A stretch of DNA of 64,000 nucleotides. It comes from Candidatus Melainabacteria bacterium. GTDB lineage: Bacteria; Cyanobacteriota; Vampirovibrionia; 2-02-FULL-35-15. Positions within the stretch are counted from its first letter, which is position 1, and each line of letters starts with the position of its first letter. A program made the translations under genes and the position numbers. A model generated the notes under the pieces. It saw nothing but the letters and a program-made list of their open reading frames with translations. It was not told the origin of the DNA and searched no databases. Location: assembly GCA_023250205.1 (NCBI GenBank), contig JAHFBE010000001.1, positions 2,110-66,109 of the forward strand, in the 5' to 3' direction. Positions 4,252-40,910 of the stretch are shown in pieces.

Positions 4252-5100
4252 TTACAATTTCCTATGTTCTAATGCTGGCAAATTCTTTCTAATTTTTTCT
4301 AAATAGTCCAATTCAATTTCTGCAAAAATCACTTCTTCTTTATCCGCAGAGGCTTCAGCTAAAACTTTCCCCCACGGATCTACAATTAAACTATGTCCAT
4401 ATGTTCTCACACCACCAGAGCCAATCCCAGCCTGGTTAGGTGCCACTACATAACAAAGATTTTCTATTGCTCTTGCTTTTATAAGTGTATGCCAGTGAGC
4501 TTCACCAGTTGGTTTAGTAAATGATGAAGGAACACAAATAATCTTAGCCCCAGATTTTGAATATGCTCGATATAATTCTGGAAATCTCAAGTCATAGCAA
4601 ATACTCAAACCAATTTTAATAGAGTTAGGTTTGAAACCTACCTCTACAAGTTTTGGATTTTTACCAGCCTGATTTCTGCTTGATTCCAAAATCTCTTTTC
4701 CTTTTAGCTTAATATCAAACAAATGTATCTTTCTATACTTTGCAACAATTTCCCCTTCTGGGTTTATTAGAACTGAAGTATTAAATGGTTTTAAATCATT
4801 CTTTATGCTTCGTGCTTCGTGCTTCGTGCTTCTTGTTCTTTCCAAAATGCTACCAATTAAAATCCAAACTTTATGCTTCTTTGCAAGTGCCGAAATTAAA
4901 TTTGTAGATTGTCCTGGAATACTTTCAGCAAATTTAACAGCTTCAATCAGATTTCCGCGATAGTTAAAAACCTCTGGCAATGCAATAAACTTTGCTTTTT
5001 TCTTAATTGCTTGATTGATTAACTTTGCAGCCTCTTTTAAATTTTTATCTTTTTCTGAACCGCTTTTCATTTGAATAACGGCCACTTTGAGATTAGTCAT
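4252..5100 (-). CDS. carbon-nitrogen hydrolase (nitrilase superfamily, omega-amidase-like)
   Basis: LPEVF..., RKIHLFD and SICYDLRFPE blocks (Glu-Lys-Cys triad context); carries an in-frame heptamer-repeat insertion. Confidence 0.85.
   Translation of the reverse strand: MTNLKVAVIQMKSGSEKDKNLKEAAKLINQAIKKKAKFIALPEVFNYRGNLIEAVKFAESIPGQSTNLISALAKKHKVWILIGSILERTRSTKHEARSIKNDLKPFNTSVLINPEGEIVAKYRKIHLFDIKLKGKEILESSRNQAGKNPKLVEVGFKPNSIKIGLSICYDLRFPELYRAYSKSGAKIICVPSSFTKPTGEAHWHTLIKARAIENLCYVVAPNQAGIGSGGVRTYGHSLIVDPWGKVLAEASADKEEVIFAEIELDYLEKIRKNLPALEHRKL
4807..4841. repeat. heptamer tandem array (GAAGCAC on the coding strand, 3 perfect plus 2 degenerate units) inside the hydrolase CDS
   Basis: gcttcgt x3 then gcttctt gttcttt on the plus strand; translated as STKHEARSIKN. 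Confidence 0.85.
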
Positions 5101-5106
5101 GAGAAT

Positions 5107-5253
5107 TTATGATTGTACTTTATGAGCTTTTCCCTGTTTTTCTTTATATTCTTTATATTTCTTTTTAAATGAGTAATTTAAGTAGAACGGAATCCCACTT
5201 ATAAATGCAATTAACAGAGTAAGCACAATAATTTGGATCAATAAATCTTTCAT
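5107..5253 (-). CDS. possible small membrane protein, 48 aa (MKDLLIQIIVLTLLIAFISGIPFYL...)
   Basis: Below the ORF-track length cutoff; ATG start; stop 6 nt upstream of the hydrolase start; one hydrophobic helix then a K-rich tail. Confidence 0.3.
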   Translation of the reverse strand: MKDLLIQIIVLTLLIAFISGIPFYLNYSFKKKYKEYKEKQGKAHKVQS

Positions 5254-5450
5254 ATAGTTATTCCACCAACTCTTCGTATCCTTCTTGAAGTATCATTGTA
5301 CCAATAAATGCTAGAAATATTGAACCAATCAAATTAATAAAAATTTGACTGTTTAAAGATAACCCATCTTTTAAAATGTCTCAAACGAGAACTGCAGCAG
5401 GTGTCAACAATAGGTTACATCGGCAAGTTAGTTTTTTCGTAACTATTCAC

Positions 5451-5582
5451 GTCATTGCGAGGAAACACGAAGTGTTGACGTGGCAATCTCATTTTGCAAT
5501 ATCGTTTATAAGGCAGCCTTGCAAGCGGTATCTTAGTGTGAGATTGCTTCGTCATCCGCCAATGCGGATTTCTCGCAATGAC
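5451..5582. repeat. MITE-like palindromic element (GTCATTGCGAGG family)
   Basis: GTCATTGCGAGGAAACACGAAGTGTTGACGTGGCAATCTC ... GAGATTGCTTCGTCATCCGCCAATGCGGATTTCTCGCAATGAC. Confidence 0.85.
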
Positions 5583-5590
5583 AGAAAATT

Positions 5591-6145
5591 TTATTTAATG
5601 AGTGTTTCCTGTTTCTCAGTATTAAATAGTGTTGTTACTTCTTTATTTATAATCTGAGCCATCATTAACAAATGTCCGCCAGGATAACCATAGTATCCAT
5701 CTATTAAAAAGTCATGATCGTGAATTTGGTTTTGTAATATTTTTGGTTTTATTTTTTTTAGACCTTCTTCCTTTATATGTTCTCTTTTGAAAAGATTAAA
5801 TATTTTGTCAAAGATACCATCCTCACAATTTGCAGAAATAATTATCATTCCAGTAGGAAGCAAAAGTCTCCTTGCCTCATTGTAGAAAAAAGTATTCGGC
5901 GCAGTAGAGGCTTGCTGTAGCAAGCTTCTACCATCGCATAACGAATAATCTGTTACGATGCGCGTGAATGTATTATCTTCAAAAGGTAATTTTTCCAAGC
6001 CGTCCTCAGTAAAAGATAAGGCATTTTGTTTTTCTTTTATTCCTTTTATTAGATCTTCCTGCCACTCCCCTATTACCAGAACAGACTGCCCAACACCTAC
6101 AGCTTTAATTATTCGCTTAACTATTTTTTCTGGTTTTGAAATCAT
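5591..6145 (-). CDS. hypothetical protein, weak class I methyltransferase-fold resemblance
   Basis: VLVIGEW..., LPFEDNTFTRIV and LLPTGMIIIS resemble degenerate SAM-MTase motifs I/II/post-III; no clean GxGxG. Confidence 0.35.
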   Translation of the reverse strand: MISKPEKIVKRIIKAVGVGQSVLVIGEWQEDLIKGIKEKQNALSFTEDGLEKLPFEDNTFTRIVTDYSLCDGRSLLQQASTAPNTFFYNEARRLLLPTGMIIISANCEDGIFDKIFNLFKREHIKEEGLKKIKPKILQNQIHDHDFLIDGYYGYPGGHLLMMAQIINKEVTTLFNTEKQETLIK

Positions 6146-6156
6146 GATTTAAAAAA

Positions 6157-6607
6157 TGAAGTTTCTCATAAGCCGGGTTTTGTTTATGCAGTTATCTATC
6201 TAGGAGTATTGTCACCAATACCCTCAAGCGGTTTCAGCAGAATTGAGCAGCGGGCCACTGTTATCCAATCCTATACCTTATCCTTGCACCTTTAGCGGGG
6301 TTTACCAAGATTACAGTCACCTGTAAAATTCGTGAGCTCTTACCTCACGGTTGCACCCTTACCGACATGCGTATTGAGTATCGTGTACTGAGTATTACAT
6401 CAATAAAAAAAATCTTATTCTCTGACGCAATACTCAATACTCCATACGCAAGAAGGCGGTCTACATTTCTGTGGCACTTTCCTCACACTTACATGCACTT
6501 CGCATTACGAAGCAACCAGCCCTCTGGAGCCCGGACTTTCCTCATTCCATTGTTTTTCACCTAATTAGGCATACGATCAATGAAACGCAACTGCTTGAGA
6601 AACTTCA
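6157..6607 (-). ncRNA. rnpB: RNase P RNA, bacterial type A
   Basis: Minus strand reads GAGGAAAGTCCGGGCTCCA, AGTGCCACAGAAA..ACCGCC, GGTAAGGGTG, GGTAAGAGCTCAC, GGTAAACCCC and ACAAAACCCGGCTTA in the canonical order. Terminal P1 pairing is TGAAGTTTCTC (5') with GAGAAACTTCA (3'). Confidence 0.93.
6368..6449. repeat. heptamer-repeat hairpin (GCGTATTGAGTAT family) at about the P12 position of RNase P RNA
   Basis: Arms gcgtattgagtatcgtgtactgagtattac / gacgcaatactcaatactccatacgc with 7-nt periodicity, between ACCGCC and GGTAAGGGTG. Confidence 0.8.
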
Positions 6608-6868
6608 TGAGTATTATAACTTAAATCAAAATTTATTATCTTTTAATCAATTGTATGAGGAAAGTTAAATTAAAAATATTTAATTTTGTAAAGCAATAAA
6701 TATCCCTCAACCCTAAATAAAGAATAAATATAATCAAAAAACATTTAAATTCAACTCACTCAAAAAAAATTAGGGCTACCTCCTGTGACGTTCATCCCAC
6801 TGATGGGTAATTTGACTTCAGTAATCTCAAATTATGTGTTGGGATTTTTTTTGAAATGGGAGGTTCGT

Positions 6869-9868
6869 GTGAAAAAGATTATTTCAATTTTCTTAATCAT
6901 CGTTTTTGCATTTGTTTCTTTTGAATGCATAAGCACAAATGATGCATATGCTTCTAAAAAAGGAAGCAAAAAAGCTGGCAATAGTAAAAAAGGTAAGGGT
7001 GGGAAATCATCCAAGACTTCTTCTCAAGTATTTAGCAATACTGGAGAAACCACTTTATATGGCAGTGTTCTAATACCAACTGCTGATGAAGCAAATGTAC
7101 TTTTACCATCAGCTCAATTCGCTCAGGTCAGAAATGCAGGGGTAGAAAATTTAATTTTTACTCTTACATCTGCAGTTGATTCAACTATGGCATATAACAT
7201 TCCAAGTGAATCAGCGACAATTCAAAACAAAACTCTTAATAAGAAGTCTGGGAAATATATTGTTATTAGTTTATTTACTTTAACAAATCAATCAGGAATA
7301 ACAGTTTCCCCAAGCTCATTACCTTCAGATCAATACAAAATCACTATATCTGATGGTGACAGCCTTAATATAACAACTGAATCTTTTAAATTTGAACCAC
7401 CTGCACTAGTAGTTGGTACTGCTAAAACACAAACTACAAGTATTGTAACTGTTGATGACTTATCTGGAGATATGATTTCAGATGGAGCAGTTACAACAAG
7501 TACAAATGGTGCATTCTTTACTGAAGTAAGAGCTCAAAAACTTTCTACTGATTCTTCAGGTAAAAGTAGAAAAATTCGAGCTCAAACAACTGACGATGGA
7601 ACTGGTACAGGAGATACTGAGCCAGTAGATGATGCCCCAATAGATCCTGGTATTGTTAATGTAAATGATGGTGAGTTAACAGCTCTTTGGCCACTTACAA
7701 ACGATCCAGAAGTAAATGAAGATCAAGCTAATAATCCAGGTGTAGTTGATGAAAACACAACTCAAGCACTTGACTTACTAATAGAATCTGCGGATGGAGA
7801 TCTGGACAAATTAGAGGAATTTGCAGATGACGTAGTAAATGACAAAGTCGATGAATTTCAAGATGATTCATCTAATTCAGATTCAGACAATTCAGATTCA
7901 GGTGATTGTCCTGATCCTAAATTGTTAGCTGATCAATGTTCAAGTCCTAATGCAGAGTTAGGAGAAAAAGTTTTACAAACTTATATCAATAATCCTGCAT
8001 GTCAATTTGATGGTAAACAATTCATTGCTACATTACCTGTCATTAAAATCGCAGAAGTTTATTGTGAAAAAGCTAATCAAGAATTTGATGATCAAAAACC
8101 TTGTGAAATTTTTGCAATGATTCTTGCTGATTCTAAAAAGAATCCAAACTTTAAATTACCTTGTCCTCCACATCAATGTACAGAATTTGCCAATGTAAAA
8201 AATTGTGTAAATCCAACTGAACTTTGTGGTGGTCCTGGTCCAAACGGTCCTCAACAAGGCCCATTAGCACAAGTTACAGGTGGTCCTCAACAAAGTCCTC
8301 CTCCTCAACAAGGTGGTGGCTTTGGTGGTCCTCAGCAAGGTCCTCCTCCTCAACAAGGTGGTGGCTTTGGCGGTCCTCAGCAAGGTCCTCCTCCTCAACA
8401 AGGTGGTGGCTTTGGTGGTCCTCAGCAAGGTCCTCCTCCTCAACAAGGTGGTCCTGGTAACGGATGCTTTGCTCCTCCTCCAAAGGATTTATTCTGTAAG
8501 CAAATTGGAAAAGATATTCAAGCTTCAGAATGTGTCCCGGATCAATTTGGCGGTCCACAATGGACTATTGCTTCAACAAATGATATTAAATTCTGTGTTC
8601 CTGATATGATATTTGCTCCTCCAGGATTTACAGGAACAGTTCCAACTTCTAGTGAAATTGCACAACAATGTACTTTAGGCTCCTGCCACAATGAATGTGA
8701 TAGCAAATTTGGAAGACCTTTCCAAACATTTGGATTACAAACATTTGGCGGTCCACAGCAAGGTAGTCCTCAACAAGGTCCTCCTCCTCAACAAGGTGGT
8801 CCTCAGCAAGGTGGTGGATTTGGTGGTGGTCCTGGAAATTTCCAAGAACCTCCTTCAGCAGTTTGCCATCAAAAATGTGAAGCTAAAGCTGGACACTTAT
8901 CATGTAATCCATTTTCTTTAGCATTCAGTAAAAATTGCTGTTCACAAACACAACCAAACTTTGCTGCACAATTCGTTGGTCCACAACAAGGTGGCGGCTT
9001 TGGCGGACAAGGCGGCGGCTTTGGCGGACAAGGTGGCGGCTTTGGCGGACAAGGTGGTGGGCAACGTCCTATTCCTCCTGGTGGTAATATTCAAAACTGC
9101 TTATGTAACTCAGGTACATTTGATAGTGATGGATTTATTACTCAAGATGCAATAAACACTTGTAAGAATTCATGCCCTGACGGTACTGAATTAGTACTAC
9201 TATCAAGTGGTCAAAATGGCTGCTTACCAAAATGTAAAGAAGGTCAAACAAGAGAACCAGGAAGTAATTTTTGCAAAGGTGGAAGCAATGAAAATGATTG
9301 CCCTCCAGGTCAAACATTAGGACCTGATGGTCAATGTAAACCTTCTGGTGGTCAATGTCCTCCAGGTCAAATACAAGGACCTGATGGTCAATGTAAACCT
9401 GGAAGCGGAGACCAAGGTGGATTTGGATGCGATCCAAAAGATCCAAATTGTAAGCCTGGTGCACCACAACAAGGTCCTCCTCAACAAGGCGCTCCTCAAC
9501 AAGGTCCTCCTCAACAAGGTCCTCCTCAACAAGGTCCTCCTCAACAAGGTCCTCCTCAACAAGGTCCTCCTCAACAAGGTCCTCCTCAACAAGGTCCTCC
9601 TCAACAAGGTCCTCCTCCTCAAGGTGGCGACCAAGGTGGTTTCCAACCTCCTCCACAAGGTGGTCAACAACCTCCTCCACAAGGTGGTCAACAACCTCCC
9701 CCACAAGGTGGTCAACAACCTCCTCCACAAGGTGGTTTCCAACCTCCTCCTGGCGGTGACGGCGGCGGTTCTCCACCTCCTCCACCACCACCTCCTCCTC
9801 CACCTCCTCCTGATGGCGGCGGCGGCGGTTCTCCACCACCACCACCTCCTCCTCCTCCTCCTGGTTAA
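6869..9868 (+). CDS. secreted Cys-rich, Pro/Gln/Gly-repeat giant protein (about 1000 aa)
   Basis: Likely GTG start at 6869, 5 nt after GGGAGG. N-terminal signal-like KKIISIFLIIVFAFVSFECISTNDAYA. Multiple in-frame tandem repeats, many Cys, polyproline C-terminus. Terminator follows. Confidence 0.8.
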   Translation: MKKIISIFLIIVFAFVSFECISTNDAYASKKGSKKAGNSKKGKGGKSSKTSSQVFSNTGETTLYGSVLIPTADEANVLLPSAQFAQVRNAGVENLIFTLTSAVDSTMAYNIPSESATIQNKTLNKKSGKYIVISLFTLTNQSGITVSPSSLPSDQYKITISDGDSLNITTESFKFEPPALVVGTAKTQTTSIVTVDDLSGDMISDGAVTTSTNGAFFTEVRAQKLSTDSSGKSRKIRAQTTDDGTGTGDTEPVDDAPIDPGIVNVNDGELTALWPLTNDPEVNEDQANNPGVVDENTTQALDLLIESADGDLDKLEEFADDVVNDKVDEFQDDSSNSDSDNSDSGDCPDPKLLADQCSSPNAELGEKVLQTYINNPACQFDGKQFIATLPVIKIAEVYCEKANQEFDDQKPCEIFAMILADSKKNPNFKLPCPPHQCTEFANVKNCVNPTELCGGPGPNGPQQGPLAQVTGGPQQSPPPQQGGGFGGPQQGPPPQQGGGFGGPQQGPPPQQGGGFGGPQQGPPPQQGGPGNGCFAPPPKDLFCKQIGKDIQASECVPDQFGGPQWTIASTNDIKFCVPDMIFAPPGFTGTVPTSSEIAQQCTLGSCHNECDSKFGRPFQTFGLQTFGGPQQGSPQQGPPPQQGGPQQGGGFGGGPGNFQEPPSAVCHQKCEAKAGHLSCNPFSLAFSKNCCSQTQPNFAAQFVGPQQGGGFGGQGGGFGGQGGGFGGQGGGQRPIPPGGNIQNCLCNSGTFDSDGFITQDAINTCKNSCPDGTELVLLSSGQNGCLPKCKEGQTREPGSNFCKGGSNENDCPPGQTLGPDGQCKPSGGQCPPGQIQGPDGQCKPGSGDQGGFGCDPKDPNCKPGAPQQGPPQQGAPQQGPPQQGPPQQGPPQQGPPQQGPPQQGPPQQGPPQQGPPPQGGDQGGFQPPPQGGQQPPPQGGQQPPPQGGQQPPPQGGFQPPPGGDGGGSPPPPPPPPPPPPPDGGGGGSPPPPPPPPPPG
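8279..8455 (+). repeat. 45-bp tandem repeat, about 4 units (GGPQQGPPPQQGGGF)
   Basis: Read directly in the giant CDS. Confidence 0.9.
8990..9064 (+). repeat. 21-bp tandem repeat, about 3.5 units (GGGFGGQ)
   Basis: ggtggcggctttggcggacaa repeated. Confidence 0.9.
9467..9616 (+). repeat. 15-bp tandem repeat, 10 units (QQGPP)
   Basis: caacaaggtcctcct repeated, nearly perfect. Confidence 0.92.
9632..9751 (+). repeat. 24-bp tandem repeat, 5 units (QGGQQPPP / QGGFQPPP)
   Basis: caaggtggtcaacaacctcctcca repeated. Confidence 0.9.
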
Positions 9869-15653: not shown

Positions 15654-17062
15654 ACAATGAGAACAAAAATCGTCATTGCGAGGAGGATAGCGACGAAGCA
15701 ATCTCCAAAACGTTAGGAGATTGCCGCGTCAGTGCTAATGCACCTCCTCGCAATGACAGTGAAATTCCAATCTACAACACCTTAAAAGATTACTTATCTA
15801 AAACTCCTGTTCGAATGCATGTCCCATTTCACAATGGAATTCCTAATAATGGCATTCTCCCAAAAGAACTTTACAACATAGATATTTCCGAAGTAAGCGG
15901 ATATGACATAGAAGGGGAAGACAATCCTATCTTTCAATCCGAGAAAATTACTGCTGATTTTTTTGGCGTAAAGCATTCTTTTTATTTAACCGGAGGAGCA
16001 AGCATTGGATTGTTAGCAAGTTTAATTGCACTGAATAAATATGGTAAGAAGGTAATTCTTGCAAGGAATGTTCATAAATCAGTAATCAATGGGGTGATTT
16101 TAAGCGGACTTGAACCTGTTTGGCTTGAGGTAGACTTCCTTGACAATTGGGGGATATTCTCAAAAGTTAATTCTGACAAGCTTGAACAATTGATATTAAA
16201 TGAACCAGAAGTAGCTGGATGTGTAATCGTATCTCCTACTTATGAAGGTGTCATTTCAGACATTAAATCTATTTCAGAGATTTGTCACAAGAAAAATATT
16301 CCTTTGATTGTAGATGAAGCACATGGAGCACATTTGTGGTTTTTAAGAGAACGGAAGCACGAAGTACGAGGCACGAAGCAAGAAAAAACATCTACTGGTA
16401 AGCTTAGCGCCGATCTCACCATCCAATCATGGCATAAATCTCTTGGAAGTTTAACTCAAAGTGGTGTTTTACATCTAGCAAATGAAAGATTTTTTTCGTA
16501 TAACGATATAAAACGTTCTTTAGATTTAGTTAGTTCTACAAGTCCATCTTTTTTACTTTTACTATCTCTAGAATTAACAAGAAAACATTTTTCAGAGACC
16601 AACGGTTTATTTCTTAACCAATTATTAACCCTTTCAGAATCTTTAAAATCAGAAATGAAAGAAATTCAAGATATTGAAATTTTTAATAGTGAGGATCCAT
16701 TTAAACTTTATATAAAATTAAAAAATATTTCCGGAATTGATCTTGGATTTGAATTATACAAGAATCATTCAATTGAGATTGAAAGTGCAAACGACATTGG
16801 ACTTCTAATGTTAATTGGGCGGGGATTTAACAATGAATTAAAAAATAAAATCATTAATGCAATTAAAGAAATTGCTCCATGTAAGGGCACGCCATGGCAT
16901 GCCCCAACAAAAGGCAAGCCACACACAAATAAATTTAAATCAAATCCTCGCAATGCATTCTTGAATGGATTTCAAAATAAAACAAATTGCGAATATGAAT
17001 CAGAAATAGTTGCACCATGTCCACCAGGATATGCTATGAATGTACCAGGAATGCCTACATGA
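15650..17062 (+). CDS. Orn/Lys/Arg decarboxylase family PLP enzyme (Bacillus SpeA-like)
   Basis: IPIYNTLKDY...MHVPFHNG N-terminal block, DEAHGAH and SWHKSLGSLTQSG (PLP lysine) blocks. ATGA overlap with the trmL stop. Two in-frame repeat insertions. Confidence 0.85.
   Translation: MNNENKNRHCEEDSDEAISKTLGDCRVSANAPPRNDSEIPIYNTLKDYLSKTPVRMHVPFHNGIPNNGILPKELYNIDISEVSGYDIEGEDNPIFQSEKITADFFGVKHSFYLTGGASIGLLASLIALNKYGKKVILARNVHKSVINGVILSGLEPVWLEVDFLDNWGIFSKVNSDKLEQLILNEPEVAGCVIVSPTYEGVISDIKSISEICHKKNIPLIVDEAHGAHLWFLRERKHEVRGTKQEKTSTGKLSADLTIQSWHKSLGSLTQSGVLHLANERFFSYNDIKRSLDLVSSTSPSFLLLLSLELTRKHFSETNGLFLNQLLTLSESLKSEMKEIQDIEIFNSEDPFKLYIKLKNISGIDLGFELYKNHSIEIESANDIGLLMLIGRGFNNELKNKIINAIKEIAPCKGTPWHAPTKGKPHTNKFKSNPRNAFLNGFQNKTNCEYESEIVAPCPPGYAMNVPGMPT
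15672..15756. repeat. MITE-like palindromic element inside the decarboxylase reading frame (codons 8-38)
   Basis: GTCATTGCGAGGAGGATAGCGACGAAGCAATCTCCAAAACGTTAGGAGATTGCCGCGTCAGTGCTAATGCACCTCCTCGCAATGAC; translated RHCEEDSDEAISKTLGDCRVSANAPPRNDSE. Confidence 0.85.
16354..16388. repeat. GAAGCAC-type heptamer array (5 units) inside the decarboxylase CDS
   Basis: gaagcac gaagtac gaggcac gaagcaa gaaaaaa; translated RKHEVRGTKQEK. Confidence 0.8.
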
Positions 17063-18159
17063 TAACCATAACAAATCAAGCTATTGAAACCACCACTTCA
17101 AAATATGCAATCAATGCTTTAGAAAAGAAATGTTTTTTTAAGTTAGTATGCGGCGCAAGTTTAACTGACACACAAATGATAGAAAATCTTTCATTTATTT
17201 TTACCCTTGCTGGAGCACATGTAATAGATCTGGCACCAAGTGCAGACGTGATCTTTGCAGCGAGAAGAGGAATTGAAAAAGCTCTAAGTTATCTTGAGAA
17301 ACAGAGGCATGAGGCACGAAACACGAATCATGAAGAGCAAATTTCTTTCCTGCTTCCTGCTTCCTGCTTCCTGCCTCGTCCTCCACTTCTAATGGCAAGC
17401 ATACAGCTTGACAAAGATCCACACTTTCGAAAAGCACAAGTGAACTATGATTCATGCGATCTTTGTAGTGCCTGTGTACAAATCTGCCCAACAGAAGCTT
17501 TTAAAATTGAAGACAATAAGTTTATTTATTCAGTAGAAAAATGTTTTGGCTGTGGTATTTGTCCTTCTTACTGTCATGTCTCTGCACTAAGCATGCTTGA
17601 TACAAATCCTACGCCAATAGAAACTTTCCAGGAAATGGTTTTACTTGGAGTTGAAGCAGTTGAATTTCACTTTGGAGAGAATTTTCATAGGTTAGAAGAA
17701 ATCTGGGATCAAATAAATAATCTCAGGAATAAATCCATGTTATTTTCATTCAGTATTGGAAGTGGGCTGCTCTCTGACAAACAAATTAAAAATGCTGCCA
17801 ATTTATGCTTTAAACTTGCAGGAAAAGGCATTATTTTACAATGTGATGGAACCCCAATGAGTGGTGGAAATAATAAAAATGGGAATAATAAGGATAACCC
17901 TAGCTTACAAGTTGCGAAGCTCATAGAAGAAGAAAATTTGCCAGTTTATTTACAAATATCAGGTGGGACAAATGAAAACTCTTTTGCTAAAGCAAAAGAG
18001 GCAAAAATAAATATTAACGGTGTAGCAATTGGATCTTATGCCAGAAAATTACTTATGCCCTATTTAAGCGATTTAAATGATAAAGTAAAATTTAAAGACG
18101 CAGCTAACATTGCTCGCTCATTAGTTAATTCTGTTGGAAATTGTGAGGTAACATCTTAA
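17059..18159 (+). CDS. LdpA-like protein with two 4Fe-4S ferredoxin motifs
   Basis: FFKLVCGAS N-terminal block, CDLCSACVQICP and CFGCGICPSYC cluster motifs. ATG at 17059 overlaps the upstream stop (ATGA). The LdpA assignment is from memory of the cyanobacterial protein. Confidence 0.6.
   Translation: MITITNQAIETTTSKYAINALEKKCFFKLVCGASLTDTQMIENLSFIFTLAGAHVIDLAPSADVIFAARRGIEKALSYLEKQRHEARNTNHEEQISFLLPASCFLPRPPLLMASIQLDKDPHFRKAQVNYDSCDLCSACVQICPTEAFKIEDNKFIYSVEKCFGCGICPSYCHVSALSMLDTNPTPIETFQEMVLLGVEAVEFHFGENFHRLEEIWDQINNLRNKSMLFSFSIGSGLLSDKQIKNAANLCFKLAGKGIILQCDGTPMSGGNNKNGNNKDNPSLQVAKLIEEENLPVYLQISGGTNENSFAKAKEAKININGVAIGSYARKLLMPYLSDLNDKVKFKDAANIARSLVNSVGNCEVTS
17304..17380. repeat. opposed heptamer arrays (GAGGCAC-type x5, spacer, CTTCCTG x4-5) forming an imperfect hairpin inside the LdpA-like CDS
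   Basis: gaggcat gaggcac gaaacac gaatcat gaagagc ... tttcctg cttcctg cttcctg cttcctg cctcgtc; translated RHEARNTNHEEQISFLLPASCFLPRP. Confidence 0.8.
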
Positions 18160-39669: not shown

Positions 39670-40845
39670 ATGACTACAAAACAAGAATTTAAATTTGCAT
39701 CAGCCACTTGTGGTTTAAAAAAAACCAAGAAACCTGATCTGGCAATTATTTACTCAGACATCCCCTGCATTTACAGTGGAGTTTTCACAACAAATCAAAT
39801 TCATGCAGCTTGCGTAGATGTAAATAAAGATTTATTAAAAAAGAAGAAAAGAATAAGAGCAATTGTTGTTAATTCAGGGAATGCAAATGCCTGTACAGGA
39901 AAAAAAGGATTCCAAGCAGCAAAAGAGACCCAGCACATTGCAGCAAAGTTATTAAAGATTAAACCTGATGAGGTTTTAGTAGCAAGTACTGGTGCAATTG
40001 GAATTCACCTAGATATGGATAAAATGAACAATGGCTTGATACAAGCTTGCTCAAACCTAAGCTCAAAGAATCTAAATGCAGCAGCAAAAGCAATATTAAC
40101 CACAGATCAATTTGTGAAAATTGTAAAAAGAAAAACAAAAAAATTTAAATTAGTTGGTTTTACAAAAGGAGCAGGGATGATTCATCCAAATATGGCAACC
40201 ATGCTCTGTTATTTAATGACAGATTTAAATATTTCACAAGAGCTCCTTCAAAAAGCCCTACAAACAGCAAACAATGAAAGCTTTAATAATATTTCTGTAG
40301 ACGGTGACATGAGCACAAATGACATGGTCATCCTAATATCAAACCGACAAAGTAAAAAAGAAATTAAAAGTATTAATGATCCCGCTTTTATAAACTTTCA
40401 AAAGGTTTTAACGGAATCGTGTATTAAATTAGCAAAAGAAATTGTAATTGACGGTGAAGGAGCAAACAGACTTATTAACGTTTCTGTACATGGAGCAAAA
40501 CTAATCAGCGATGCAAAAGAAATCGCAAGATCTATTTCCAGTTCTACACTTTTTAAGTGCGCTATCTATGGAGCAGACCCAAACTGGGGAAGAGCTGCAA
40601 GCAGAATAGGATGTACAAACGTAAAAGTTGATCCAAAGAAAATTGATGTTTTTTTAAATACGACCCCAGTCTATAAAAAAGGTGTACCTGTAACGTTTAA
40701 TAAGCCAAAACTAAACAAGCAAATAAAAAAGAGTAGAGAGGTGAAAGTAACTGTTAACTTAAACCTTGGGAATAAGTCTGCCAGTGCTTACGGATGTGAT
40801 TTAAGTTACGAGTATGTAAAGTTTAATTCCGCTTATTTCACATAG
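39670..40845 (+). CDS. argJ: bifunctional glutamate N-acetyltransferase / amino-acid acetyltransferase
   Basis: KGAGMIHPNMATMLCYLMTD autoprocessing site and ArgJ-typical C-terminus. Confidence 0.93.
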   Translation: MTTKQEFKFASATCGLKKTKKPDLAIIYSDIPCIYSGVFTTNQIHAACVDVNKDLLKKKKRIRAIVVNSGNANACTGKKGFQAAKETQHIAAKLLKIKPDEVLVASTGAIGIHLDMDKMNNGLIQACSNLSSKNLNAAAKAILTTDQFVKIVKRKTKKFKLVGFTKGAGMIHPNMATMLCYLMTDLNISQELLQKALQTANNESFNNISVDGDMSTNDMVILISNRQSKKEIKSINDPAFINFQKVLTESCIKLAKEIVIDGEGANRLINVSVHGAKLISDAKEIARSISSSTLFKCAIYGADPNWGRAASRIGCTNVKVDPKKIDVFLNTTPVYKKGVPVTFNKPKLNKQIKKSREVKVTVNLNLGNKSASAYGCDLSYEYVKFNSAYFT

Positions 40846-40910
40846 CGTATTGCGTCGTGAGTATAGAGTATTGCGTTACAAGGCGCTCAATACTCCATAT
40901 TCTATACGCT
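40845..40910. repeat. heptamer-repeat hairpin of the GCGTATTGAGTAT family (same family as the RNase P insert)
   Basis: gcgtattgcgtcgtgagtatagagtattgcg ... cgctcaatactccatattctatacgc immediately after the argJ stop. Confidence 0.8.

What the first reader, a model, noticed from the sequence alone, without database searches (positions are those of the whole stretch)
6157..6607. RNase P RNA gene hidden under spurious ORFs, with a heptamer-repeat hairpin at about the P12 position
The minus strand carries all the type A RNase P RNA hallmarks in order, with a clean P1 pairing (11 bp). Between ACCGCC and GGTAAGGGTG, where P12 lies, there is an 82-nt hairpin (6368-6449). Its arms are 7-nt periodic repeats (gtattga gtatcgt gtactga gtattac / gcaatac tcaatac tccatac). 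The same repeat family forms a hairpin after argJ (40845-40910), so this looks like a dispersed repeat colonising a structural RNA helix. Heterocystous cyanobacteria are reported to carry short tandemly repeated repetitive (STRR) heptamers within P12 of rnpB, so this may be a parallel case in a cyanobacteria-related lineage.
Basis: partly seen in the sequence, partly recalled or inferred. Interest (0 to 1): 0.6.

Follow-up and report, generated by a model that had tools for sequence, protein, structure and literature searches.

The report
Heptamer-repeat hairpin inside RNase P RNA
The gene for the essential tRNA-trimming ribozyme RNase P in an uncultured groundwater melainabacterium has one outer helix (P12) lengthened by an 81-base hairpin of 7-base repeats, a repeat-in-ribozyme pattern first reported in 1997 for heterocyst-forming cyanobacteria and here seen in their non-photosynthetic sister group.

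Summary
Rfam's bacterial RNase P class A model matches window 6154-6606 (minus strand) end to end at 218.6 bits (cut-off 100). It places the extra sequence exactly in the apical loop of P12.

The insert (6369-6449, 81 nt) folds as a continuation of P12. Its arms are 7-nt periodic (at most 2 of 5000 shuffles reach the observed value), with 4 units on one arm, 5 on the other, and one 7-nt bulge.

The organism is a groundwater 'Candidatus Melainabacteria' genome assembled from a metagenome (2.1 Mb, 34% GC). Seven relatives in the same genus or family have invariant P12 flanks but only 7-36 nt in between. None of about 25 other rnpB genes from the class has a heptamer-periodic P12.

The GAGTATT heptamer family gives 19 matches in this genome and 0-1 in 150 other genomes of the class. 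No second full-length copy of the hairpin exists.

As a positive control, 10 of 10 long rnpB genes from one family of large-genome cyanobacteria carry heptamer-periodic P12 hairpins.

[quoted passage not shown] It is a new member of a known kind.

The parts
6154..6606 (-). rnpB, the RNase P RNA gene (bacterial type A), 453 nt, the only copy in the genome
   Evidence: RF00010 at 218.6 bits, full model 1-367. One match in the whole assembly. The protein partner gene rnpA is present elsewhere in the genome (PF00825, 62 bits, intact 132-aa frame).
6361..6459 (-). Complete P12 helix: a conserved base (CCGCC / GGU) plus the extended distal part
   Evidence: Structure line of the covariance-model alignment, fold and invariant flanks in alignment A2.
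6364..6454 (-). The 91-nt stretch that differs from the closest relative's rnpB (G002 has 26 nt here). The flanks are 90% and 97% identical.
   Evidence: BLAST blocks at query 1148-1364 and 1456-1547 of window 5000-7100 against G002.
6369..6449 (-). 81-nt heptamer-periodic hairpin (GCGTATG...AATACGC) at the P12 apex
   Evidence: The periodicity is reached by 1 of 5000 shuffles.
6422..6449 (-). 5' arm with four 7-nt units: GCGTATG GAGTATT GAGTATT GCGTCAG
   Evidence: period-7 match 0.71, reached by 0 of 5000 shuffles.
6404..6421 (-). A/U-rich apical spacer (AGAAUAAGAUUUUUUUUA), unique in the genome
6369..6403 (-). 3' arm with five 7-nt units: TTGATGT AATACTC AGTACAC GATACTC AATACGC. In the minimum-energy fold one unit's worth of sequence (GUACACG, 6382-6388) is bulged out.
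6556..6576 (-). 21-nt extra in the P3 loop. Family relatives also carry a P3-loop extra, of 4-70 nt.
   Evidence: Covariance-model alignments.
6613..6618 (-). Perfect TATAAT hexamer ending 6 nt upstream of the predicted 5' end G6606. No good -35 element.
   Evidence: Read from the sequence. The consensus scan found no full promoter here.
6367..6564 (+). Spurious 65-aa ORF antisense to rnpB. A second one lies at 6471-6668.
   Evidence: Not on record as a called gene elsewhere.
40845..40909 (+). Second hairpin of the same heptamer family, directly after the argJ stop codon. In five relatives this site holds only a short spacer.

Best explanation
This is the single, functional RNase P RNA gene of a groundwater melainabacterium. 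Its peripheral helix P12 has recently been lengthened by an 81-nt hairpin built from the genome's own GAGTATT/GCGTATG heptanucleotide repeats. The hairpin stacks on the conserved P12 base and is probably tolerated; outward projection of P12 from the specificity domain, away from the catalytic core, the tRNA and the protein subunit, is established knowledge, not tested here. The hairpin most likely arose or grew in place through gain and loss of whole 7-nt units on both arms of a hairpin tip, rather than by transposition of a finished element. It is a neutral or selfish passenger, not an adaptation. Shown here: gene identity, insert position, periodicity, the family's restriction to this genome, and absence of the insert from relatives. 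Inferred: retention in the mature RNA, harmlessness to catalysis, and the slippage origin.
For: The covariance model matches at 218.6 bits over the full model, with the insert between P12 positions 136 and 137. The fold continues P12 at -38.8 kcal/mol, z = -7.15. The genome holds one rnpB and an intact rnpA, so this copy must work. Seven relatives have invariant ACAGAAA..ACCGCC and GGTAAGGGTGCAAC flanks with only 7-36 nt of P12 between them; one has a bare GAAA tetraloop, so the distal P12 is dispensable in this family. The flanks are 90-97% identical to G002, while 91 nt here stand against 26 nt there. The heptamer periodicity is reached by at most 2 of 5000 shuffles. The 20-mer (GAGTATT)n with up to 2 mismatches gives 19 matches in this genome and 0 for the reversed control, against 0-1 in each of 150 genomes of the class, same-genus genomes included. 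Period-7 arrays are enriched in the genome: 47, against 13, 3 and 4 for periods 6, 8 and 9. No second copy of the element exists, only arm matches of 26 nt or less. Arm unit counts are unequal here (4 versus 5, with a 7-nt bulge) and in the GAAGCAT family (for example 4 versus 11 and 3 versus 7), which points to changes in whole units. Heptamer hairpins at two other sites, one downstream of argJ and one inside an Fe-S protein gene, are also absent from the same sites in relatives. Positive control: 10 of 10 long rnpB genes of one large-genome cyanobacterial family have heptamer-periodic P12 hairpins, with different heptamers in different genera.
Against: Retention of the insert in the mature RNA and its activity are therefore untested. 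Read support for the assembly could not be checked either. P12 differs completely among all relatives, so it cannot be decided whether the hairpin was inserted into a short P12 or replaced it. The mechanism that produces 7-nt units is unknown. The second same-genus genome, G001, yielded no rnpB at all, so the closest comparison rests on G002 alone.
Confidence: 0.85

Rival explanations
1. The hairpin is a mobile miniature element of the MITE, REP or REPIN type that transposed as a unit into the P12 loop, moved by a transposase encoded elsewhere in the genome.
For: Both family hairpins in the window begin with GCGTAT and end with ATACGC. The argJ site and the Fe-S gene site are cleanly empty in relatives, as expected for insertions.
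Against: No other locus shares more than 26 nt with the insert, and the loops of different copies are unrelated. Many loci are one-sided tandem arrays, not hairpins. The Y1 transposase family (PF01797; its REP-associated members, RAYTs, move REP sequences) does not track the repeats. It is strong only in G002, which has no heptamers, and absent from G006, which has 17 GAAGCAT matches. No target-site duplication is evident.
Confidence: 0.1
2. The insert behaves like an rRNA intervening sequence. The long duplex is cut by RNase III after transcription, so the working ribozyme is a two-piece RNA held together by the rest of its structure.
For: The insert forms about 33 base pairs, made of 7, 6, 14 and 6 bp segments.
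Against: The longest uninterrupted helix is only 14 bp, interrupted by a 7-nt bulge and a 4-nt loop, which makes a poor RNase III substrate. To my knowledge the cyanobacterial RNAs carrying heptamer repeats are found at full length. No RNA data are available here.
Confidence: 0.04
3. The extended P12 is an adaptive expansion, for example a docking site for a lineage-specific protein or a stabiliser of the specificity domain.
For: Other lineages of the class and phylum keep long P12 extensions of 100-200 nt that are not periodic, so a long P12 can persist.
Against: It is absent from every genus- and family-level relative. Its sequence is the same junk-like heptamer family that also lies in intergenic DNA and inside genes. 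One relative works with a bare GAAA tetraloop.
Confidence: 0.03
4. The insert is an assembly artefact, or the locus is a decaying pseudogene.
For: The genome was assembled from a metagenome into 83 contigs and is 86.5% complete. Hairpin repeats can confuse assemblers.
Against: Both rnpB halves are in the correct order and orientation and are 90-97% identical to G002. The insert continues the P12 helix exactly from its conserved base. This is the only rnpB in the genome, every conserved core motif is intact, and rnpA is present.
Confidence: 0.03

Closest known systems
[quoted passage not shown] The paper is not held in the library. Its title was confirmed through the reference list of PMC4748335. 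Its details are from my own knowledge.
   Same: The repeats are 7-nt tandem units sitting on both arms of P12 and lengthening that helix. The units belong to a family dispersed in the same genome, and close relatives carry unrelated repeats or none. The pattern was reproduced here: 10 of 10 long rnpB genes of one cyanobacterial family have heptamer-periodic P12 hairpins, with period-7 match of 0.49-0.67. These include GGGGACT (a rotation of the complement of STRR1, CCCCAGT) and TTGGTCA or TAGTCAT (STRR2-like); the STRR consensus sequences are from memory.
   Different: The host is a non-photosynthetic groundwater melainabacterium of 2.1 Mb and 34% GC, not a heterocystous cyanobacterium. The unit sequence, GAGTATT/GCGTATG, is unrelated to STRR1-3. 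Within the class sample this is the only case found (1 of 29 parsed rnpB loci, three of them duplicate loci of the same genes), whereas it appears to be the rule in the cyanobacterial family sampled.
Small dispersed repeats (SDR) of Nostoc and Anabaena (Elhai et al. 2008, Genome Res 18:1484; from my own knowledge, not retrieved)
   Same: Very short repeat units appear at sites that are empty in relatives and tend to extend hairpin structures.
   Different: SDRs are units of 21-27 nt inserted as single copies. Here the unit is 7 nt and tandem.
REP and REPIN elements mobilised by REP-associated tyrosine (RAYT) transposases (Bertels & Rainey 2011, PMC3116915)
   Same: Short hairpin-forming repeats, specific to one genome, lying outside and between genes.
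   Different: There is no conserved full-length element. The Y1 transposase does not co-occur with the repeats. The arms are internally 7-nt periodic.
Intervening sequences of bacterial 23S and 16S rRNA
   Same: An extra hairpin at the tip of a peripheral helix of an essential structural RNA, variable among close relatives.
   Different: Those sequences are removed by RNase III, which fragments the RNA. No evidence of cleavage exists here, and the helix is interrupted.

Membership tests
Bacterial RNase P RNA, type A (Rfam RF00010) | Covariance-model score above the curated gathering threshold over the full model | tested here: met
   218.6 bits against a threshold of 100, model 1-367 of 367, E 1.4e-69.
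Bacterial RNase P RNA, type A (Rfam RF00010) | Conserved core sequence blocks (P4 strands GAGGAAAGUCCGG and ACAAAACCCGGCUUA, J11/12 ACAGAAA, J12/13 GGUAAGGGUG) and P1 closing the molecule | tested here: met
   All are aligned with high posterior probability. P1 pairs GAAGUUUCUCA with U-GAGAAACUUC.
Bacterial RNase P RNA, type A (Rfam RF00010) | Single essential gene with its cognate protein subunit RnpA | tested here: met
   One rnpB match in the genome. PF00825 at 62 bits in an intact 132-aa frame.
Bacterial RNase P RNA, type A (Rfam RF00010) | Catalyses 5' maturation of pre-tRNA | not testable with these tools
   Needs an in vitro cleavage assay or a complementation test.
STRR-type heptamer repeats in rnpB helix P12 | Tandem repeats with a 7-nt unit | tested here: met
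   Period-7 match is 0.71 (5' arm), 0.54 (3' arm) and 0.49 (whole insert), reached by 0, 2 and 1 of 5000 shuffles. Other periods give 0.11-0.33.
STRR-type heptamer repeats in rnpB helix P12 | Located within P12 and lengthening that helix | tested here: met
   The insert lies between model positions 136 and 137 in the P12 loop, and the fold continues P12.
STRR-type heptamer repeats in rnpB helix P12 | The unit belongs to a family dispersed through the same genome | tested here: met
   19 matches against 0 for the reversed control. Ten loci have three or more in-phase units.
STRR-type heptamer repeats in rnpB helix P12 | Close relatives carry unrelated repeats or none (recent, independent acquisition) | tested here: met
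   Seven relatives have a short, non-periodic P12. The family gives 0-1 matches in each of 150 genomes of the class.
STRR-type heptamer repeats in rnpB helix P12 | Host is a heterocyst-forming cyanobacterium, and the unit is one of STRR1-3 | tested here: not met
   The nearest named relatives are 'Candidatus Melainabacteria' genomes from groundwater metagenomes. GAGTATT is not CCCCAGT, TTGGTCA or CAACAGT (those consensus sequences are from memory). It therefore works like an STRR but is not a member of the named cyanobacterial STRR families.
STRR-type heptamer repeats in rnpB helix P12 | Not required for catalysis in vitro | not testable with these tools
   Indirect evidence only: relative G010 has a P12 reduced to a short stem of about 3 bp (4 bp if the loop-closing A-U is counted) closed by a GAAA tetraloop.
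Miniature mobile element (MITE, REP or REPIN) | Several near-identical full-length copies | tested here: not met
   The best non-self match is 26 nt, and the loop is unique.
Miniature mobile element (MITE, REP or REPIN) | Cognate transposase (Y1 or RAYT type) co-occurring with the repeats | tested here: not met
   The distribution of PF01797 does not follow the distribution of the heptamers.
rRNA-type intervening sequence | Excised or cleaved from the mature RNA by RNase III | not testable with these tools
An RNase III homologue is present, but the longest uninterrupted helix is 14 bp.

The most novel reading that the evidence does not exclude
Heptamer-repeat hairpins are not peculiar to heterocystous cyanobacteria. 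They would be the product of a specific process, still unidentified, that adds 7-nt steps at hairpin tips and is switched on sporadically in scattered lineages, with rnpB P12 as a recurrent sink. In this melainabacterial family the repeats are present in some sibling genomes (the window's genome; G006) and absent from most others (G002-G005, G008-G010). Comparing gene content between the two sets could therefore name the responsible factor, which has been unknown since these repeats were first described in 1990.
Probability: 0.15. Interest if true: 0.7.

Novelty: new member of a known kind. Interest (0 to 1): 0.35.

Why it matters
The case extends the 1997 observation of 7-base repeats invading helix P12 of RNase P RNA from heterocystous cyanobacteria to their non-photosynthetic sister lineage, with an unrelated heptamer. 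It adds a natural example showing that the distal P12 tolerates very different lengths, from a GAAA tetraloop in one relative to about 90 nt here. The patchy presence of heptamer families among sibling genomes offers a comparative way to look for whatever generates such repeats. In practical terms, it flags two antisense ORFs as spurious and places an essential RNA gene there.

Tried and rejected
1. Transposase link. The Y1 transposase family (PF01797) was searched in 13 relatives. It is strong only in heptamer-free G002 and absent from heptamer-rich G006, so the idea was rejected.

2. Copy-and-paste element. A blastn-short search of the 81-nt insert and of its loop against the genome found no second copy.

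4. Independent assemblies. An exact look-up of the antisense 65-aa ORF product found nothing on record.

5. The missing rnpB of same-genus genome G001. A 9.6-bit hit was followed up with permissive Rfam filters and gave nothing, and BLAST with the window's rnpB found nothing. This remains unresolved.

6. Promoter and terminator consensus scan around the gene. Nothing exceeded the shuffles. Only a lone TATAAT hexamer 6 nt upstream of the 5' end can be read from the sequence.

7. Literature. The Vioque 1997 paper is not held. No held paper combines STRR with Melainabacteria or Vampirovibrionia. One search with the term 'heptamer' was swamped by protein heptamers.

8. Pseudogene or artefact readings were considered and judged unlikely, because the core is intact, the gene is single-copy, rnpA is present and the flanks are conserved.

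Full report
**What is there**

Rfam's bacterial RNase P class A model (RF00010) matches window 6154-6606 on the minus strand. The score is 218.6 bits against a gathering threshold of 100, with E 1.4e-69, covering model positions 1-367 without truncation. It is the only Rfam match in the 64-kb window and the only rnpB in the 2.09-Mb assembly.

The conserved blocks are all present: GAGGAAAGUCCGG, ACAGAAA, GGUAAGGGUG, GGUAAGAGC and ACAAAACCCGGCUUA. P1 closes the molecule, pairing GAAGUUUCUCA with U-GAGAAACUUC. The protein subunit gene rnpA is present elsewhere in the genome (PF00825, 62 bits, intact 132-aa frame).

Two 65-aa ORFs on the opposite strand (6367-6564 and 6471-6668) overlap the RNA gene. 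They are best read as spurious. No gene with the product of the first is on record in the public collection.

**Where the extra sequence sits**

The covariance-model alignment places one large insertion between model positions 136 and 137. That is the apical loop of the hairpin lying between the ACAGAAA junction and the GGUAAGGGUG junction, which is P12.

The insert proper is 6369-6449 (81 nt, GCGTATG...AATACGC).

Folded on its own strand, the P12 region gives -38.8 kcal/mol, z = -7.15 against 200 shuffles, none of which folds as well. The new helix stacks directly on the conserved P12 base (CCGCC/GGU).

From base to tip the structure is:
- 7 bp
- a one-nucleotide mismatch on each strand
- 6 bp
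- a 7-nt bulge (GUACACG, 6382-6388)
- 14 bp
- a 4-nt bulge
- 6 A-U pairs
- a U4 loop

**Heptamer periodicity**

In RNA sense the 5' arm reads GCGTATG GAGTATT GAGTATT GCGTCAG (4 units). The 3' arm reads TTGATGT AATACTC AGTACAC GATACTC AATACGC (5 units).

| Region | Period-7 self-match | Shuffles reaching it (of 5000, dinucleotide-preserving) |
|---|---|---|
| 5' arm | 0.71 | 0 |
| 3' arm | 0.54 | 2 |
| Whole insert | 0.49 | 1 |

Other periods give 0.11-0.33. The extra unit on the 3' arm corresponds to the 7-nt bulge in the fold, so the two arms differ by exactly one unit.

**The organism**

The tryptophanyl-tRNA synthetase gene two genes away finds its closest relatives (74-89% amino-acid identity) in groundwater metagenome-assembled genomes named 'Candidatus Melainabacteria'. 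Examples are RIFCSPLOWO2_02_FULL_35_15 and RIFCSPHIGHO2_02_FULL_34_12. NCBI places this group in the Cyanobacteriota/Melainabacteria clade. The genome is 33.6% GC, in 83 contigs, and 86.5% complete.

**Relatives lack the insert**

Seven genus- or family-level relatives (G002, G003, G004, G006, G008, G010, G011) have invariant flanks, AGTGCCACAGAAA..ACCGCC and GGTAAGGGTGCAAC. Between the flanks they have only 7-36 nt of unrelated, non-periodic sequence. G010 has a P12 reduced to about 3 bp (4 bp if the loop-closing A-U is counted) closed by a GAAA tetraloop.

Against same-genus G002, the two rnpB halves are 90% and 97% identical. Window 6364-6454 (91 nt) stands against 26 nt in G002.

Among 29 rnpB loci of the class whose P12 could be delimited (three are duplicate loci of the same genes), only the window's is 7-periodic. 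More distant lineages (G020, G025, G035) have P12 extensions of 100-150 nt, but these are not periodic.

**The repeat family**

The 20-mer GAGTATTGAGTATTGAGTAT, allowing up to 2 mismatches, occurs 19 times in this genome. The reversed control occurs 0 times. Each of 150 other genomes of the class has 0-1 matches, including same-genus G001 (1) and G002 (0).

Period-7 arrays are enriched in the genome. There are 47 arrays of at least 3 copies at 85% match or better, against 13, 3 and 4 for periods 6, 8 and 9.

A second, larger family, GAAGCAT/GAAGCAC, forms 26 loci. Seventeen of these are hairpins of 54-111 nt, often with unequal unit counts on the two arms (4 versus 11, 3 versus 7, 4 versus 6). 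This family is shared only with G006 (17 matches), G001 (one locus) and G007 (one match) among 40 relatives.

In G002, G003, G006, G009 and G010 the argJ stop codon is followed by only a short spacer of roughly 5-25 nt before the next gene's start (in G006 the fetched stretch shows no spacer). The hairpin is therefore an addition in this genome. G001 has an unrelated insert of about 150 nt at the same spot.

A GAAGCAT-type hairpin inside a gene (window 17304-17381) is likewise absent from G001, G002 and G003, where about 30 nt stand against about 100 nt here.

**Not a transposed copy**

A short-word BLAST of the 81-nt insert against the genome finds no other locus sharing more than 26 nt, and the loop is unique. 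The loops of different family hairpins are unrelated, and many loci are one-sided tandem arrays.

A Y1 (RAYT-type) transposase does not track the repeats. It is strong only in heptamer-free G002 and absent from heptamer-rich G006.

Together with the unit-wise inequality of the arms, this favours growth in place by gain and loss of 7-nt units over transposition of a finished element. The mechanism itself remains an inference.

**Comparison with what is known**

[quoted passage not shown] I confirmed the title through a reference list, because the paper itself is not held. PMC2858038 cites cyanobacteria as a case where P12 is dispensable.

From my own knowledge, that paper reports three things: the repeats lengthen P12, they are not needed for activity in vitro, and closely related strains carry unrelated repeats.

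rnpB was located in 395 of 401 sampled genomes of the phylum. Of 20 long rnpB genes that I fetched, all 10 from one large-genome family (4.5-8.5 Mb) have P12 hairpins with heptamer-periodic arms, with period-7 match of 0.49-0.67.

Two further sequences from other families (f16 and f34) show the same pattern, though the f16 one only more weakly (period-7 match 0.43). The second f16 sequence fetched is not periodic.

Different genera carry different heptamers: GGGTAAT, TTTAGAT, AATTAAA, AAAGGCA, GGGGACT, CAGTGAA and TAGTCAT. Long P12 helices in seven other lineages are not periodic.

The window's P12 (0.45 over the whole region) therefore shows the same anatomy, in a different class and with an unrelated unit. 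No held paper links STRR with Melainabacteria or Vampirovibrionia.

Earlier notes of this scan are unchecked AI notes and are not evidence. They report similar heptamer hairpins in rnpB P12 in several other phyla, which tempers the novelty.

**How it most likely works**

The RNA is probably transcribed from close to its mature 5' end. A perfect TATAAT lies 6 nt upstream of G6606, read, although the consensus scan found no full promoter.

The insert probably stays in the ribozyme as a rod projecting from the specificity domain. By established knowledge of type A RNase P architecture, P12 points away from the active site, the tRNA and the protein. The natural range among relatives, from a tetraloop to about 90 nt here, supports that tolerance.

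An alternative is RNase III cleavage giving a two-piece ribozyme.

An assembly artefact or a pseudogene is unlikely, given the single copy, the intact core, the presence of rnpA and the conserved flanks.

**Limits**

- Same-genus genome G001 yielded no rnpB by either covariance model or BLAST, and this is unexplained.

**Verdict**

This is a new member of a known kind and of moderate interest. Its main value is as a clean, recent, well-bracketed example in the sister lineage of the cyanobacteria, within a family whose siblings differ in whether they carry heptamer repeats at all.

Noticed in passing
G001 (same-genus genome, 98% complete, 7 contigs): No rnpB is detectable by covariance model, even with permissive filters, or by BLAST with the window's rnpB, although every other near relative has one. 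It may lie in an assembly gap, possibly one caused by a repeat.
   Followed up: partly
window 4806-4832: A perfect (TGCTTCG) x3.9 heptamer array lies inside the nitrilase-like ORF 4252-5100 (minus strand) and encodes ...STKHEARSIKN.... Heptamer arrays therefore also sit in frame within genes.
   Followed up: partly
window 17304-17381 and 16354-16384: A GAAGCAT-family hairpin (78 nt, -32 kcal/mol) and a one-sided array lie inside long ORFs. The hairpin site is about 70 nt shorter in G001, G002 and G003.
   Followed up: partly
window about 5440-5585: Two short segments here (about 5440-5495 and 5537-5583) give 20 of the 27 short matches in G001 and 3 of the 10 in G002. This is a different dispersed repeat. 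Termini of the GTCATTGCGAG...CTCGCAATGAC type were seen beside several repeat loci.
   Followed up: no
window 40845-40909 and the same site in G001 (L103): The spot directly after the argJ stop codon holds a heptamer hairpin here, an unrelated GC-rich insert of about 150 nt in G001, and nothing in five other relatives. It looks like a recurrent landing site.
   Followed up: partly
window 6556-6576 (P3 loop of rnpB): Family relatives also carry extra sequence in the P3 loop of rnpB: 4 nt (G006), about 21-26 nt in most, about 55 nt (G002) and 70 nt (G011). In three members (the window, G003, G010) the extra forms a conserved-looking small hairpin.
   Followed up: no
window 6785-9868 (+): A 1027-aa ORF lies next to rnpB. 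It has an N-terminal hydrophobic segment, many cysteines, and long tandem repeats encoding PQQGPP, GGGFGG and poly-proline. It is probably a secreted or cell-surface repetitive protein.
   Followed up: no
L022, L035, L036 (G020, G025, G035) and L086-L092: Other lineages of the class and the phylum have P12 extensions of 90-210 nt that are not heptamer-periodic. P12 is a general expansion site in this phylum.
   Followed up: partly
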